From IMG/VR virus record IMGVR_UViG_3300031998_000028, positions 50,916 through 114,915 of that record: a stretch of 64,000 bases of DNA; one strand, written 5' to 3'. Positions 17,293 through 29,352 of this stretch are shown in pieces. Each line of letters starts with the position of its first letter. The first letter of the stretch is position 1. A program made the translations under genes and the position numbers. Under the pieces are notes generated by a model. It was not told the DNA's origin. It ran no database searches and worked only from the letters and a program-made list of their open reading frames with translations. This stretch comes from a virus (lineage: Duplodnaviria > Caudoviricetes).

Positions 17293-17368
17293 GGGGGATT
17301 GGTGTTAGTGGCAAGCATGGCTGCCTTCCAAGCAGCAGGGGCCGGTTCGAGTCCGGTATCTCCTTCCA
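17293..17368 (+). tRNA. tRNA-Gly(TCC)
   Basis: cloverleaf, GCTGC-CTTCCAA-GCAGC, CCA end. Confidence 0.9.
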
Positions 17369-17443
17369 TAGACCCATACAGCAAAACTGTAGAAATGCAA
17401 TAAAAATATATTGGATATTTATGATTACATTTATAAGGGTCTA
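17369..17443 (+). ncRNA. CAGCAA-stem small RNA copy E1 (Y-RNA-like candidate)
   Basis: TAGACCC-ATA-CAGCAA...GGGTCTA terminal stem. Confidence 0.6.
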
Positions 17444-19710: not shown

Positions 19711-19818
19711 CCGCCAGAACATAAGGGCATATGGAATGGTTGGATGCTCGGGGCACCGTGGCCTTTTGCCAACACGGATGATACCTTGGAGACGTGGGTT
19801 CGAACCCCGCCCTGGCGG
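19711..19818 (+). ncRNA. enlarged tRNA-like element
   Basis: CCGCCAG/CTGGCGG closing stem, GTGGG-TTCGAAC-CCCGC T arm, extended D- and anticodon-like arms, no CCA. Confidence 0.45.
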
Positions 19819-20142
19819 CTTTGTGGCTGCTGGGTAGTTTAGAAGGTCAAAACACCAGGGACATTAATGGTCGCGTAGGGAACCTCCTCGTGGTGCGACT
19901 GGACGGACAGTAGTATGCGATTACTGAGCCGAGAACTAATTCCCAGATAGTTTCAATCTAATATCGCATAGGATTGAAGTGTACTCCCCTTAAGCCCAAG
20001 GGCGCAGGTTGTGACCAGCGATACAACAGTAACTCGGGATGCGCATGAAATTTCGGCTATAAGGTACACAGCGAGCCGTAGAAGCAGTACAGCTATCGAA
20101 TTAAAACTGGGGTAGCGGGCAGTATAATCATACCGCTAATAT

Positions 20143-21462: not shown

Positions 21463-21617
21463 AAGGCTCAGGCAGCAAAAAATTTTTTTGTAGGTCTTAC
21501 CTGCTTCTTGATATTGAAGATATATCACAACTGGATAATATATCGAGTTGTTCCACGTGGGCGCAATCACACGTTAAAAATGGTCGAGAACGCATTACTC
21601 GTAAAAACGTGAGCCTT
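21463..21617 (+). ncRNA. CAGCAA-stem small RNA copy E2 (multi-hairpin cargo)
   Basis: AAGGCTC-AGG-CAGCAA...GAGCCTT, about five internal hairpins. Confidence 0.55.
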
Positions 21618-21958: not shown

Positions 21959-21965
21959 CATATGG

Positions 21966-22040
21966 TCCCCTATGGTGTAATGGTAGCATAGCTGGCTCTA
22001 ACCCAGCAGATACCCGTTCAAATCGAGGTTGGGGGTGCCA
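21966..22040 (+). tRNA. amber-decoding tRNA (CTA anticodon), probably Gln
   Basis: GCTGG-CTCTAAC-CCAGC; unpaired 1:72, G73, D arm resembles tRNA-Gln(CTG) at 25572. Confidence 0.9.
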
Positions 22041-23072: not shown

Positions 23073-23163
23073 GCTGGGATAGTTTAATGGTAAAACAGCG
23101 GGTTTATACCCCGTAGCGCCAGATTAGCGGCTTTTCAGGGTTCGAGTCCCTGTCCCAGTCCCA
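23073..23163 (+). tRNA. tRNA-Ile(TAT) with long variable arm
   Basis: GCGGG-TTTATAC-CCCGT, about 20-nt variable arm. Confidence 0.75.
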
Positions 23164-26615: not shown

Positions 26616-26691
26616 ACGGATTTAGCTCAACTGGAAGAGCATTGCGTTTACACCGCAGAGGTTATGGGTTCAAGTCCCTTAGTCCGTACCA
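26616..26691 (+). tRNA. tRNA-Val(TAC)
   Basis: cloverleaf, CCA end. Confidence 0.9.
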
Positions 26692-26693
26692 TT

Positions 26694-26759
26694 AAGACCC
26701 GTACAGCAAATATAACTTACAAAACTGCAAATTTTTGGAAGAAGTTTTTATTGGGTCTT
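26694..26759 (+). ncRNA. CAGCAA-stem small RNA copy E3
   Basis: AAGACCC-GTA-CAGCAA...GGGTCTT; inner hairpin AAAA-CTGCAAA-TTTT. Confidence 0.6.
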
Positions 26760-26765
26760 GTATAT

Positions 26766-26852
26766 GCACGAGTGCTGCAATAGGAAGCCAGGCATGGTTG
26801 AGGTCCATGTGTCCGATAGGACATAGGGGTTCAAGTCCCCTCTCGTGTACCA
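26766..26852 (+). tRNA. tRNA-Leu(GAG)
   Basis: long variable arm, CCA end. Confidence 0.85.
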
Positions 26853-26880
26853 AATAACTAAAAAGAGAAGTGAGAAAAAA

Positions 26881-27357
26881 ATGATAAGTCCAACTCATGG
26901 AGAAATAACTCTGCGGCAGACCGCACTCTTAATCAAAAATTTCATAGAGTTAGACCCGGATTCACAATATGCAATCTATATTGGTTCTGATAGTCAAAAT
27001 ACTTACTACACCAAGATGGTAACTGTCATCGCAGTCCATAAGGTCGGCCGCGGTGGTCAGTACTTTTATGAGGTTTCCAAATACGACAAGATTCGTGATA
27101 TTCGCACGAAGCTTTATACGGAAACTCAACTTAGCTTGGATATGACAGGTAGGCTTTTTGATGAATTTGAAGCTCTTGGGTTTGAATATGATGCAGATAA
27201 TATCATGTTCTGTATTCATATTGACGCAGGTAACGGTGGTCCAAGTGGTCAAGTAATACCTGAAGTAGTTGGATATGTTCATTCTATGGGTTATAACTGC
27301 GAAGTTAAACCAGATAGTCCGATTGCTTCTTGTATTGCAGATAGAATAAGTAAGTAA
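26881..27357 (+). CDS. RNase H-like YkuK/DUF458 family protein
   Basis: IGSDSQ...VIAVHKVGRGG..E...S, IHIDAG..G.S, KPDS..AS..ADR. Confidence 0.75.
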   Translation: MISPTHGEITLRQTALLIKNFIELDPDSQYAIYIGSDSQNTYYTKMVTVIAVHKVGRGGQYFYEVSKYDKIRDIRTKLYTETQLSLDMTGRLFDEFEALGFEYDADNIMFCIHIDAGNGGPSGQVIPEVVGYVHSMGYNCEVKPDSPIASCIADRISK

Positions 27358-27364
27358 GTAAATA

Positions 27365-27453
27365 AAGGCGCGCACAGCTAAATCTATTATAGCATAATGG
27401 TAATGCACCCGACTTGTAATCAGGATATACGGTTCGAATCCGTTTAGCGCCTT
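27365..27453 (+). ncRNA. CAGCWA-stem small RNA copy E4 carrying a tRNA-Thr(TGT)-like body without acceptor stem
   Basis: AAGGCGC-GCA-CAGCTA...GCGCCTT encloses D arm, CTTGTAA loop and ACGG-TTCGAAT-CCGT. Confidence 0.65.
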
Positions 27454-27464
27454 GAATAAATAAA

Positions 27465-27537
27465 AAGACACTTGCAGCAAATCTTTTCTTTAATCGCCAT
27501 TGAATTATAATATTTTGATTAGATATTAGGGTGTCTT
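27465..27537 (+). ncRNA. CAGCAA-stem small RNA copy E5
   Basis: AAGACAC-TTG-CAGCAA...GTGTCTT. Confidence 0.6.
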
Positions 27538-27549
27538 GATACAAACTAA

Positions 27550-27665
27550 TAGACCCATACAGCAATCATTCTTATAGAGAATATGTTATTGGTTCGATTC
27601 CAATTATGCAAGCCATAAATTTTGCGTATTGAGCAATAGGTAGCTCAGTTCTACTAAAGGGTCTA
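27550..27665 (+). ncRNA. CAGCAA-stem small RNA copy E6 with circularly permuted tRNA-like domain (YrlA-like topology)
   Basis: TAGACCC-ATA-CAGCAA...T arm, loop-closed acceptor stem, D arm...GGGTCTA. Confidence 0.7.
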
Positions 27666-27718
27666 GTCTTTATCTCGACCGAGATAAATCATTTTGGAGA
27701 AAAAGGAGAAAATAAAAC

Positions 27719-29245
27719 ATGAATTTTACTAACGCTCTTGATAAGGAGTTCAACTATAAGTTGACCGAAAATGGCGGCCTTGCGCATAAGTCTACCTGTG
27801 ACGCGCTCTATGATATGTTTGCCCTGGGTGGCGCATATCGTAGTCGTAGCGATGAGGATTGTGTCTTCCTTTTCATGAAGGCATTTGAGGAAAGTCCTAC
27901 TTATGCTATGAAGTGCCTCTTCTATCTGCGTGACATTTTGCAGGGACAGGGCGAACGTCGCTTCTTCCGTGTCTGCATTAAGTGGGCCGCGGACAACCAT
28001 CCTTTGGAGATGGAGCGCAATCTCAAGTACGTACCGGAATACGGTCGTTGGGATGACCTATATGCCTTCGTAGGCACCAAGCTGGAAGCGAGTATGTGGG
28101 CCTTCATGTATGAGCAGTTCCGTCTGGATATGGCTTCCAAGACTCCTTCTCTGCTCGGAAAGTGGCTCAAGTCTGAGAATACTTCCAGCAAGGAGTCTCG
28201 CGTCCTTGGCGCAAAGACTCGTAAGGCTCTCGGTATGACTGCGCCTGCCTACCGCAAGGCTCTGTCTTCTCTTCGTAAGCGCATCAATGTCCTTGAGCGT
28301 CTTATGAGTGAGCGCCGTTGGGATGAAATCGAGTTCGATAAAATCCCTTCTAAGGCTGGCCTCATCTACAAGAACGCCTTCGCGCGTCACGATGTGGAGC
28401 GCGCCCGCAATAAGGCTGTGCAGACTTACGAGCAGTTCGCTAAGGATAAGAACACTAAAGTTAACGCCAAGGCTCTATATCCTTACGAGGTAGTCGAAAA
28501 GGCTATTGACGTGTTCGGTGGTATCTACTGGCGTTGGAACCGCCATGAAGTGCCTTTGGATGATACCAATCGTCTGATGGTCAACAAGTACTGGGAGAAT
28601 CTGGCAGAGTATATCTCTAAGCTGGATATGAACGCTCTTTGTGTTGTGGATACCAGCGGCTCTATGCATGGTACTCCTATTGACATCGCAATCTCTCTCG
28701 GTATGATTGCGGCTGATAAGGCTCATGGTCCTTTCCATGGACGCTACATCAGCTTCAGTTCTCGTCCTCAGCTCATTAAGGTTGAGGGTGTGGATTTCGT
28801 AGATAAGGTTCGCCGCATCTATGAAACCAATCTTTGCGAGAACACCAATCTCGAAGCAACTTTCGATATGCTTCTCAATGTGGCTCAGAAGAACCACATG
28901 AAGCAGAAGGATTTGCCAGATACCATTATCGTCATCAGCGATATGGAGATTGACTGTGCATATGGTGGCTATGGTTGGAGTTCTGACCATAGCGCGGCTC
29001 GTGCAAAGAACCGCACCATGATGGAGAATATGCGTCGTAAGTGGGCACGTGCAGGCTATAAGCTTCCTAAGATGGTGTACTGGAACGTGGATGCGCGCCA
29101 GGATACATTCTTGGATGATGGCCCAGACGTAACTTACGTTAGCGGTGCAAGTGCTATCTTGTTTGAGCAAGTCGCAAAGGGCATCACCGCGCAGGACCTC
29201 ATGTTCGAGAAGCTCGACAGTGAGCGTTACGCAAAAATAAAATAA
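27719..29245 (+). CDS. DUF2828-family protein with C-terminal vWA domain (Ro60/TROVE-like architecture)
   Basis: TENG, FYLRDI..GQGERRFF, EYGRWDDL, GKWLKSE; MIDAS DTSGS and ISDME; VYWNV. Confidence 0.8.
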   Translation: MNFTNALDKEFNYKLTENGGLAHKSTCDALYDMFALGGAYRSRSDEDCVFLFMKAFEESPTYAMKCLFYLRDILQGQGERRFFRVCIKWAADNHPLEMERNLKYVPEYGRWDDLYAFVGTKLEASMWAFMYEQFRLDMASKTPSLLGKWLKSENTSSKESRVLGAKTRKALGMTAPAYRKALSSLRKRINVLERLMSERRWDEIEFDKIPSKAGLIYKNAFARHDVERARNKAVQTYEQFAKDKNTKVNAKALYPYEVVEKAIDVFGGIYWRWNRHEVPLDDTNRLMVNKYWENLAEYISKLDMNALCVVDTSGSMHGTPIDIAISLGMIAADKAHGPFHGRYISFSSRPQLIKVEGVDFVDKVRRIYETNLCENTNLEATFDMLLNVAQKNHMKQKDLPDTIIVISDMEIDCAYGGYGWSSDHSAARAKNRTMMENMRRKWARAGYKLPKMVYWNVDARQDTFLDDGPDVTYVSGASAILFEQVAKGITAQDLMFEKLDSERYAKIK

Positions 29246-29270
29246 GGGAAGAGAAATCTTCCCTTTCCGT

Positions 29271-29352
29271 GCGTCCTTATCGTGGCCGGCTCCGCCTTGA
29301 AAGCGGCTGGTATCAGGGATGATATGGGGATCGACACCTCAGGGGCGCGCCA
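29271..29352 (+). tRNA. tRNA-Ser(TGA), non-canonical (8/4-compatible)
   Basis: CCGC-CTTGAAA-GCGG, long variable arm, G73. Confidence 0.7.

What the first reader, a model, noticed from the sequence alone, without database searches (positions are those of the whole stretch)
27550..27665. Circularly permuted tRNA mimic (T arm before D arm) inside the CAGCAA stem
The 5'->3' order is AGAAT, T arm ATTGG-TTCGATT-CCAAT, acceptor 3' strand TATGCAA followed by G-CCA, a short linker, acceptor 5' strand TTGCGTA, D arm GAGC-AATAGGTA-GCTC, then GTTCT pairing back to AGAAT. The anticodon loop is replaced by the terminal handle. This is the topology described for YrlA Y RNAs, but with a different handle and an internal CCA retained. 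It may have arisen from two tandem tRNA genes.
Basis: partly seen in the sequence, partly recalled or inferred. Interest (0 to 1): 0.85.

Follow-up and report, generated by a model that had tools for sequence, protein, structure and literature searches.

The report
Phage Y-RNA-like permuted tRNA mimic
A 116-base RNA gene in a gut or rumen phage folds like a transfer RNA whose parts are in rotated order, and it sits just before the gene for a very distant relative of the Ro60 RNA-binding protein. This makes it a new variant of the known bacterial "Y RNA" tRNA mimics rather than a new kind of RNA.

Summary
The order is: 7-bp terminal stem, ACAGCAA, hairpin or closing strand AGAAT, 5-nt variable loop, T arm, 7-bp acceptor stem closed by G-CCA-TAAATT, U8, D arm, GTTCT.

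- **Structure.** All helices covary in relatives (96.6% of cells paired against 34-42% in slid controls). RNAalifold on an unfitted MAFFT alignment recovers the handle, T, acceptor and D helices.
- **Partner protein.** The gene 54 nt downstream is called DUF2828+DUF7788 by Pfam. Its predicted structure is a full-length Ro60 fold: the top 10 PDB matches are all Ro60 or TROVE, Z 12.5-19.5.
- **Handle.** Stem+ACAGCAA handles are about 10-fold enriched upstream of this gene family on the same strand. The window holds six.

The YrlA reading is therefore supported by topology and context. It is not a member of Rfam YrlA: no hit at E<=10, and the GNCGAA motif is absent.

One correction: the anticodon arm is not simply replaced by the handle. 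A hairpin remnant persists, and 23 of 52 relatives keep a complete anticodon arm split in its 5' strand.

Encoded NCCA follows the acceptor stem in 11 of 45 relatives.

Verdict: a new variant of a known kind. An earlier scan note on the same genome made the same reading.

The parts
27550..27556 (+). Handle, 5' strand TAGACCC. It pairs with 27659-27665.
   Evidence: 7 of 7 pairs, all with compensatory changes across relatives. The same stem type occurs in six window elements.
27559..27565 (+). ACAGCAA motif, 2 nt after the handle 5' strand. Presumed recognition site for the Ro-like protein.
   Evidence: Invariant in the alignments. It was used to define the handle census: 97 handles upstream on the same strand of 80 Ro-like genes, against 17 downstream and 22 on the opposite strand. 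Its role in binding is an inference.
27568..27582 (+). Anticodon-arm remnant ATTCT-TATAG-AGAAT. AGAAT (27578-82, tRNA positions 39-43) pairs either locally with ATTCT or with GTTCT at 27648-52.
   Evidence: MFE fold and RNAalifold choose the hairpin. The closing stem is 95.4% paired. The hairpin is about 77% paired in the correct register (slide +1).
27583..27587 (+). Variable loop ATGTT (tRNA positions 44-48). U48 partners A15.
   Evidence: The 15:48 combinations in the family are A:U 22, G:C 14, U:A 4, A:C 5.
27588..27604 (+). T arm ATTGG-TTCGATT-CCAAT.
   Evidence: 100% paired in the 52-sequence alignment. The loop is TTCRANT in 43 of 45 members.
27605..27628 (+). Acceptor-like stem TATGCAA/TTGCGTA (7 bp), closed by the loop G-CCA-TAAATT.
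   Evidence: All 7 pairs show double changes. NCCA follows the 3' strand in 11 of 45 members. The loop resembles NCCA + 2-6 nt AT spacers between tandem tRNAs in the same array.
27629..27647 (+). U8-U9, D arm GAGC-AATAGGTA-GCTC (A14, A15, G18 G19, A21), and A26.
   Evidence: U8 in 45 of 45 members. The D stem is 97.9% paired.
27648..27652 (+). GTTCT, a second copy of anticodon-stem 5' strand positions 27-31. It closes the tRNA-like domain by pairing with AGAAT.
   Evidence: 95.4% paired, all 5 pairs with double changes, slid controls 43-68%.
27659..27666 (+). Handle 3' strand GGGTCTA plus the following G.
   Evidence: The stem covaries. A G directly after the stem is found in 67 of 67 canonical handles.
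27669..27688 (+). Hairpin TTTATCTC-GACC-GAGATAAA between the RNA and the ribosome-binding site of the Ro-like gene.
   Evidence: Sequence. A hairpin at the same position occurs in distant relatives. Its function was not tested.
27719..29245 (+). Ro60-like protein, 508 aa (Pfam DUF2828 + DUF7788; vWA with a DTSGS MIDAS motif).
   Evidence: Pfam and PHROG 850 'RNA-binding protein'. AF2 model pLDDT 80. Foldseek top 13 hits are all Ro60. VIA Z 19.5, rmsd 4.0 A over 383 residues to 1yvp.
27365..27537 (+). Two sister handle RNAs directly upstream. 27365-27453 is a tRNA body in normal order (D, anticodon UGU, T) closed by the handle. 27465-27537 is handle-only.
   Evidence: Rfam tRNA 42.3 bits over model positions 5-66. 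Handle script. Conserved with compensatory changes in L001-L003.

Best explanation
The element is the gene for a small non-coding RNA of the Y-RNA type. It works like YrlA.

**Anatomy.**
- Its two ends pair into a 7-bp handle. This handle, together with the adjacent single-stranded ACAGCAA, is the presumed docking site for the Ro60-like protein encoded 54 nt downstream.
- The rest folds into a tRNA-shaped module in circularly permuted order: anticodon-arm remnant, variable loop, T arm, 7-bp acceptor stem, D arm.

**Proposed mechanism.**
- The tRNA-like module presents a tRNA elbow and acceptor end to tRNA-binding enzymes. It thereby tethers or gates the Ro-like ring, as Y RNAs do for Ro60.
- The acceptor loop reads like a junction between two tRNA genes (discriminator G, CCA, 6-nt AT spacer, then a 7-bp acceptor 5' strand). 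It is therefore probably opened by RNase P and trimmed back to CCA, as shown for Mycobacterium smegmatis YrlA.

**Shown here:** the sequence, the fold by covariation, the Ro60 fold of the neighbouring protein, and the association between handle and gene.

**Inferred:** binding to the Ro-like protein, processing of the loop, and the identity of any effector.

**Likely origin:** a tandem duplication of one tRNA gene, truncated on both sides.
For: 1. **Fold.**
   - Five helices have 96.6% paired cells, and 27 of 28 pairs carry double changes, against 34-42% in slid controls.
   - A de novo consensus on an unfitted alignment recovers four of the helices. The fifth is 95.4% paired on that alignment.
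2. **tRNA signature across the family.**
   - U8 in 45 of 45.
   - A14, G18 G19.
   - T loop TTCRANT in 43 of 45.
   - The 15:48 pair is complementary in 40 of 45.
   - After computational rotation, ARAGORN calls the window element a 76-nt tRNA. In native order neither ARAGORN nor the Rfam tRNA model sees a whole tRNA; the Rfam tRNA model finds only an 18-nt T-arm fragment at E 6.3.
3. **Partner protein.**
   - The AF2 model (pLDDT 80) matches Ro60 over its full length.
   - Foldseek's top 13 hits are all Ro60, E 3e-8 to 4e-5.
   - VIA Z is 12.5-19.5 for ten Ro60/TROVE entries. vWA-only hits follow at Z about 8.
   - The MIDAS residues D311, T312, S313 and S315 are invariant.
4. **Association between handle and gene.**
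   - 97 handles lie upstream on the same strand of 80 homologous genes, against 17 downstream and 22 on the opposite strand. 45 of 80 loci have at least one.
   - Of loci found by an RNA pattern alone, 32 of 118 carry the protein in the fetched stretch.
   - 5 of 6 near-complete genomes that lacked the protein in the stretch encode it elsewhere.
   - The sixth such genome encodes a canonical TROVE protein instead. Two of its three elements lack ACAGCAA.
5. **Link to YrlA.** GC-richer members of the same alignment get significant but sub-threshold Rfam YrlA hits of 30-45 bits, E down to 1e-6.
Against: - No expression, binding or processing data exist for this RNA.
- Rfam YrlA (RF02553) does not hit the element even at E<=10 in a 146-nt search.
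- The proposed Ro-binding motif of YrlA, GNCGAAN0-1G, is absent.
- Pfam TROVE finds nothing in the whole phage genome at E<=1. The Ro60 assignment therefore rests on a predicted structure at 8-15% identity.
- In many relatives the permuted element lies 0.7-2.3 kb or further from the gene. Adjacency is not universal.
- The handle also closes RNAs with no tRNA-like part. The tRNA module is therefore not required for whatever the handle does.
Confidence: 0.8

Rival explanations
1. It is a true circularly permuted tRNA gene. The handle is excised and the ends are ligated inside the anticodon stem. RNase P and 3' trimming then open the acceptor loop, giving a normal decoding tRNA.
For: - After rotation the sequence is a 76-nt cloverleaf with an encoded GCCA, and ARAGORN calls it a tRNA.
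- 23 of 52 relatives have a perfect 5-bp anticodon stem with a 7-nt loop carrying U33 and R37, split in its 5' strand. Shuffles give 0.6.
- 21 of those 23 are called normal-length tRNAs after rotation, for example Asn-GUU with G73 and CCA in L120.
Against: - In the window element the most stable hairpin has a 5-nt loop. The 7-nt alternative gives an ambiguous AUA or UAU anticodon.
- The same handle closes RNAs with no tRNA parts, and one tRNA body that has no acceptor stem.
- The phage encodes no RtcB and no Rnl-type RNA ligase.
- No bulge-helix-bulge motif is visible at the junction.
- The handle-plus-ACAGCAA motif tracks a Ro60-like gene. That fits a ribonucleoprotein, not a splicing signal.
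Confidence: 0.07
2. It is a cis-acting leader of the Ro-like mRNA. The protein or a tRNA-related signal binds it and controls the downstream hairpin and ribosome-binding site.
For: - It ends 54 nt before the start codon on the same strand.
- A hairpin followed by a U-rich run (27669-27696) lies between it and the ribosome-binding site. A hairpin at that position recurs in relatives.
- No promoter-like site is predicted between the RNA and the gene.
Against: - In most relatives the permuted element is separated from the gene by tRNAs, other handle RNAs or kilobases.
- Handle RNAs also sit between tRNA genes far from the Ro-like gene (17369, 21463, 26694).
Confidence: 0.06
3. It is a decaying remnant of two tandem tRNA genes with no function of its own.
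For: It lies in an array of 33 tRNA genes. The acceptor loop looks like an inter-tRNA junction.
Against: - Dozens of diverged copies keep every helix through compensatory changes.
- An invariant ACAGCAA and a covarying terminal stem are not tRNA features.
- No parent tRNA is recognisable in the window.
Confidence: 0.02

Closest known systems
YrlA Y RNAs of bacteria and mycobacteriophages (Rfam RF02553; Chen et al. 2014, PMC4201824; structure 6CU1, Wang et al. 2018)
   Same: - Terminal stem made by the 5' and 3' ends.
- Order: V or anticodon-like hairpin, T arm, closed acceptor-like stem-loop, D arm.
- tRNA tertiary nucleotides, including the covarying 15:48 pair.
- Encoded upstream of a Ro60-type gene on the same strand.
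- M. smegmatis YrlA also has a 7-bp acceptor stem, is cut by RNase P and ends in CCA.
   Different: - The handle carries ACAGCAA, not GNCGAAN0-1G.
- There is no Rfam YrlA hit for this copy. Relatives reach only 30-45 bits against a gathering score of 69.
- The partner protein is DUF2828+DUF7788, which the TROVE HMM does not detect.
- CCA is encoded, not added.
- Many relatives keep a full anticodon arm.
- It is embedded in a phage tRNA array alongside five other RNAs with the same handle.
Thermus phage phiLo Ro60 with Yrl1/Yrl2 (PMC12135203; PDB 9KOP, 9L5Y)
   Same: - A phage-encoded Ro60 homologue with Y-like RNAs encoded just upstream.
- More than one RNA per protein.
- The protein model here aligns to 9KOP and 9L5Y at Z 13.7 and 12.6.
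   Different: - The phiLo RNAs were identified through the conserved CGAA motif, and the paper's text search found no tRNA-like description.
- The phiLo protein is a recognised TROVE protein.
Circularly permuted tRNA genes of Cyanidioschyzon merolae and some archaea (cited in bioRxiv 10.1101/312249)
   Same: - The 3' part of the tRNA precedes the 5' part.
- The acceptor stem is first a closed loop.
- The ends pair next to the anticodon stem.
   Different: - Those genes are processed through a bulge-helix-bulge motif, a circular intermediate and ligation into working tRNAs.
- Here no such motif and no phage ligase is seen.
- The ends form a conserved protein-type handle that is shared with non-tRNA RNAs.
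Deinococcus radiodurans Yrn1
   Same: It is a Ro60-bound RNA with tRNA-like T and anticodon-like arms in the opposite orientation. The sister element at 27365-27453 has this arrangement.
   Different: It is not the topology of the element examined here. Yrn1 lacks a clear D arm.

Membership tests
YrlA-type Y RNA (Chen 2014; Rfam RF02553) | tRNA-like domain in the order T arm, closed acceptor-like stem-loop, D arm, with tRNA-conserved nucleotides | tested here: met
   Sequence. Covariation. U8, the 15:48 pair, and the T and D loops.
YrlA-type Y RNA (Chen 2014; Rfam RF02553) | 5' and 3' ends pair into a stem that leads into the tRNA-like domain | tested here: met
   7-bp handle, 98% paired, all pairs with double changes. 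Closing stem 95.4% paired.
YrlA-type Y RNA (Chen 2014; Rfam RF02553) | GNCGAAN0-1G motif near the 5' end (the proposed Ro60 contact) | tested here: not met
   Present in 0 of 45 family members within the first 40 nt. ACAGCAA is found instead.
YrlA-type Y RNA (Chen 2014; Rfam RF02553) | Score at or above the Rfam gathering threshold (69 bits) | tested here: not met
   No YrlA match at E<=10 in 501-nt and 146-nt scans. Relatives score 30-45 bits.
YrlA-type Y RNA (Chen 2014; Rfam RF02553) | Encoded within about 4 kb of a Ro60 orthologue, on the same strand | tested here: met
   54 nt upstream, same strand. The protein is Ro60-like by predicted structure only. Pfam TROVE is negative.
YrlA-type Y RNA (Chen 2014; Rfam RF02553) | Bound by Ro60/Rsr in vivo and modified by TruB and DusA | not testable with these tools
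   Needs immunoprecipitation and modification mapping.
Ro60/TROVE protein (the neighbour at 27719-29245) | HEAT-repeat ring followed by a vWA domain with a MIDAS motif | tested here: met
   AF2 model. The full-length matches at the top of both structure searches are all Ro60. DTSGS is invariant.
Ro60/TROVE protein (the neighbour at 27719-29245) | Match to Pfam TROVE (PF05731) or sequence similarity to solved Ro60 structures | tested here: not met
   Pfam gives DUF2828 + DUF7788 only. TROVE finds nothing in the genome at E<=1. phmmer and hmmsearch against PDB find no Ro60.
Circularly permuted tRNA gene | A complete cloverleaf with a working anticodon loop after rotation | tested here: inconclusive
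   ARAGORN calls a 76-nt tRNA after rotation. The stable hairpin, however, has a 5-nt loop and the anticodon is ambiguous. The feature is clearly present in 21 relatives.
Circularly permuted tRNA gene | A junction motif and ligase for excision and circularisation | tested here: not met
   No RtcB or Rnl-type ligase in the 96%-complete phage genome. The junction is a 7-bp stem plus ACAGCAA, not a bulge-helix-bulge, by inspection. Host enzymes are not excluded.
Two-piece (permuted) tmRNA | tRNA-like domain plus tag reading frame and pseudoknots | tested here: not met
   ARAGORN reports no tmRNA in the window. There is no Rfam tmRNA hit on the element. At 116 nt it has no room for a tag frame.

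The most novel reading that the evidence does not exclude
The element and its relatives are Ro-tethered split tRNAs. RNase P and exonucleases open the NCCA loop, producing a two-piece molecule with an authentic acceptor end and, in many relatives, an authentic anticodon loop and discriminator base. This molecule is charged by, or captured by, tRNA-specific factors while held on a Ro60-like ring.

One possible role is as a phage decoy or sensor against host tRNA-cleaving defences. Another is as a quality-control adaptor for the phage's own 33 tRNAs.

This would be the first permuted, potentially chargeable tRNA family in bacteria or phages. It would also assign a function to the DUF2828 protein family.
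Probability: 0.15. Interest if true: 0.85.

Novelty: new variant of a known kind. Interest (0 to 1): 0.6.

Why it matters
- It extends the Ro60/Y-RNA partnership to a protein family that sequence methods label only as DUF2828/DUF7788. It also extends it to a different RNA handle (7-bp stem + ACAGCAA + 3' G). That gives a concrete, testable function to a widespread domain of unknown function in gut and rumen phages.
- The encoded NCCA + spacer loop, the duplicated 27-31 strand, and relatives with intact split anticodon arms give sequence-level support for the idea that YrlA-type RNAs arose from tandem tRNA genes. They refine it in two ways. The acceptor-like stem is a real acceptor stem, not a spacer. 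The 'V' hairpin is the old anticodon arm.
- The phage carries six RNAs with the same handle but different bodies inside its tRNA array. This suggests a Ro-like protein that is loaded with interchangeable RNA adaptors.

Tried and rejected
- **Megablast of 27300-29300 against INPHARED phages:** no match.
- **phmmer and profile search of the protein against PDB sequences:** no Ro60 hit. Only fold comparison found it.
- **Literature search for DUF2828:** no paper links it to Y RNA or Ro60.
- **The 2026 tRNA-mimic preprint** (skipping-rope, DUF2693-FD, salivarius-1): concerns other families.
- **ARAGORN on all possible rotations:** too permissive to be informative. It was replaced by an explicit pairing test with shuffles and one deterministic rotation per element.
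- **Search for a parent tRNA among the 33 window tRNAs:** no copy is closer than ordinary tRNA-to-tRNA similarity.
- **Upstream YkuK-type RNase H-like gene (PF04308) as a general partner:** it occurs only in the three closest relatives.
- **An Rfam cow-rumen-4 hit in L140:** unrelated to the handle.
- **Sigma-70 promoter and terminator scan of 26800-27800:** nothing useful on the + strand near the RNAs.
- **My first register for the local hairpin:** it was off by one column. The slide control showed the right one.
- **The reviews PMC10870794 and PMC6047535:** not held.
- **Protein-RNA complex prediction:** not attempted, because the complex tool takes no RNA.

Full report
**Setting.** The window is the right-hand 64 kb of a 114,915-nt IMG/VR virus record estimated 96% complete. 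It carries 33 tRNA genes, all on the + strand, between 17.3 and 31.5 kb. The finding lies inside this array, 54 nt upstream of a 508-aa ORF at 27719-29245.

**Observation.**
- TAGACCC
- AT-ACAGCAA-TC
- ATTCT-TATAG-AGAAT
- ATGTT
- ATTGG-TTCGATT-CCAAT
- TATGCAA-G-CCA-TAAATT-TTGCGTA
- TT
- GAGC-AATAGGTA-GCTC
- A
- GTTCT
- ACTAAA
- GGGTCTA

Mapped onto tRNA numbering, this gives U8, A14, A15:U48, G18 G19, A21, G53-C61, a U54-U55-C56-G57-A58 T loop, a 7-bp acceptor stem, discriminator G73 and CCA. The single-sequence fold is -31.1 kcal/mol, z = -3.07. Neither ARAGORN nor the Rfam tRNA model calls a whole tRNA here in native order; the Rfam tRNA model finds only an 18-nt T-arm fragment at E 6.3.

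**Is the structure real?**
- The 508-aa protein has many relatives in viral contigs. The three closest loci already show compensatory changes in the T, acceptor, D and closing stems.
- A covariance model built from these four sequences (R1) scores 133 bits on the window element. It scores 23 bits or less on tandem-tRNA junctions. It found 13 strong copies in the protein-anchored loci.
- It found about 60 more in loci fetched by an RNA-only pattern, ACAGCAA followed by a T loop.
- On a 52-sequence alignment, 96.6% of cells pair and 27 of 28 pairs have double changes. Slid controls give 34-42%. That alignment is fitted to the model.
- I therefore also ran RNAalifold on a plain MAFFT alignment of 13 copies. 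It recovers the handle, T arm, 7-bp acceptor stem and D arm, with 23 of 28 pairs showing double changes.
- Family-wide tRNA marks are strong: U8 in 45 of 45, T loop TTCRANT in 43 of 45, and the 15:48 pair complementary in 40 of 45.

**The fifth helix.**
It can also pair with ATTCT just upstream, forming a hairpin.
- On the unfitted alignment the closing stem is 95.4% paired with 25 double-change cells. The hairpin is about 77% paired in its correct register.
- Nucleotides 27-31 of the tRNA therefore exist twice.
- In 23 of 52 relatives the redundancy is resolved into a perfect anticodon arm: 5 bp and a 7-nt loop with U33 and R37. Its 5' strand is split. Two or three nucleotides come from just after the D arm, and the rest come from the strand arriving from the handle. 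Shuffles give 0.6 such arms, with a maximum of 4.
- After one deterministic rotation, ARAGORN of those 23 as normal 71-76-nt tRNAs, including the window element at 76 nt.
- The handle is therefore attached at the 5' strand of the anticodon stem. It does not replace the anticodon arm. In the window copy the loop has degenerated: 5 nt in the stable hairpin, and an ambiguous AUA or UAU anticodon otherwise.

**The CCA.** NCCA directly follows a 7-bp acceptor 3' strand in 11 of 45 distinct family members with very different handles. About 0.7 would be expected by chance. The window loop, GCCA + TAAATT + acceptor 5' strand, matches the NCCA + 2-6-nt AT spacer junctions between neighbouring tRNAs of the same array. 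RNase P cleavage and 3' trimming are an inference. The precedent is M. smegmatis YrlA, which has a 7-bp stem, is cut by RNase P and acquires CCA (PMC4201824).

**The neighbouring protein.**
- Pfam gives DUF2828 + DUF7788, and PHROG 850 is annotated 'RNA-binding protein'.
- Sequence searches find no solved relative.
- Pfam TROVE finds nothing in the whole phage genome.
- An AlphaFold model from a 27-sequence alignment (pLDDT 80) matches Ro60 over its full length. Foldseek's top 13 hits are all Ro60 from Xenopus, human, Deinococcus and Thermus phage phiLo.
- VIA-align gives Z 19.5 (rmsd 4.0 A, 383 residues) to 1yvp, and Z 12.5-19.2 to nine further Ro60/TROVE entries. vWA-only domains follow at Z about 8.
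- The protein is a very diverged Ro60.

**Handle and gene travel together.**
- The window holds six RNAs that share the 7-bp stem, a 2-nt spacer and RCAGC(A/T)A: 17369-17443, 21463-21617, 26694-26759, 27365-27453, 27465-27537 and 27550-27665.
- Across the 80 homologous loci, such handles number 97 upstream on the same strand, 17 downstream and 22 on the opposite strand.
- A G follows the 3' strand in 67 of 67 canonical handles.
- From the RNA side, 32 of 118 pattern-derived loci carry the protein in the fetched stretch.
- Of six near-complete genomes that lacked the protein in the stretch, five encode it elsewhere.
- The sixth of those genomes encodes a canonical Pfam-TROVE protein instead. 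Two of its three elements lack ACAGCAA. This is a single anecdote, but it fits a match between handle type and protein type.

**Comparison with the known.**
- Topology, tRNA mimicry, Ro60 context, multiple RNAs per protein and phage occurrence are all described for YrlA-type Y RNAs (PMC4201824; bioRxiv 10.1101/312249; PMC12135203).
- Membership in the curated family fails on two tested features. Rfam YrlA gives no hit at E<=10. The GNCGAAN0-1G motif is absent.
- GC-richer members of the same alignment do get significant sub-threshold YrlA hits of 30-45 bits. The tRNA-like cores are therefore related or convergent.
- A true permuted tRNA gene is unlikely for this copy. The anticodon loop is degenerate, the phage has no RtcB or Rnl-type RNA ligase, and the same handle closes non-tRNA RNAs.
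- No paper that I could search links DUF2828 to Y RNAs.

**Verdict.** This is a real, conserved, YrlA-like permuted tRNA mimic, and it is a new variant of a known kind. What is new:
- the ACAGCAA handle;
- the cryptic Ro60 partner;
- the encoded CCA;
- the retained and split anticodon arm in relatives.

Binding, processing and biological role remain inferences.

Noticed in passing
window 19757-19875 (+): A second element in T arm - closed stem - D arm order, 56% GC and without ACAGCAA. It sits inside a GC-rich stretch of about 300 nt between two tRNA-Glu genes. Model R2 scores it 38 bits. Rfam YrlA scores it 23 bits (E 0.027), below threshold.
   Followed up: partly
window 27365-27453 (+): A tRNA body in normal order (D arm, anticodon arm with UGU, T arm; Rfam tRNA 42 bits over model positions 5-66). 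Its acceptor stem is replaced by the AAGGCGC/GCGCCTT handle with ACAGCTA. It is conserved, with an anticodon change to UAU in L001.
   Followed up: partly
window 17369-17443, 21463-21617, 26694-26759, 27465-27537 (+): Four handle RNAs with unrelated interiors. Two of them abut tRNA genes with 0-6 nt spacing (after tRNA-Gly at 17368; between tRNA-Val and tRNA-Leu at 26691 and 26766). tRNA-processing enzymes could therefore define their ends.
   Followed up: partly
window 27666 and 67 handles in L001-L080: The base immediately after the handle 3' strand is G in 67 of 67 canonical handles. The stem starts N-A-G and ends C-T-N. This suggests sequence-specific recognition or a processing site.
   Followed up: partly
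window 27669-27696; upstream regions of L004-L026: A hairpin sits just before the AAGGAG ribosome-binding site of the Ro-like gene in the window and in distant relatives. Examples are CCTCTTG-TCC-AAGAGG and GCCTT-GTAAA-AGGC.
   Followed up: no
window 21965-22040 (+); L010 upstream region: A tRNA with anticodon CTA (an amber suppressor, which ARAGORN labels 'Pyl') lies in the array. A related contig shows in-frame TAG codons in an upstream ORF, hinting at TAG recoding in this phage group.
   Followed up: no
L053:1647-1904: A tmRNA gene (Rfam 94 bits) lies in the tRNA and handle-RNA array upstream of the Ro-like gene of a related phage.
   Followed up: no
L110 (contig G006) and L248/L249: A complete 167-kb phage carries three T - closed stem - D elements, two of which lack the ACAGCAA motif. 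It encodes a canonical Pfam TROVE protein (73 bits) and no DUF2828-type protein.
   Followed up: partly
window 23073-23163 (+): The tRNA-Ile(TAT) gene is 91 nt long, unusually long for a class I tRNA.
   Followed up: no
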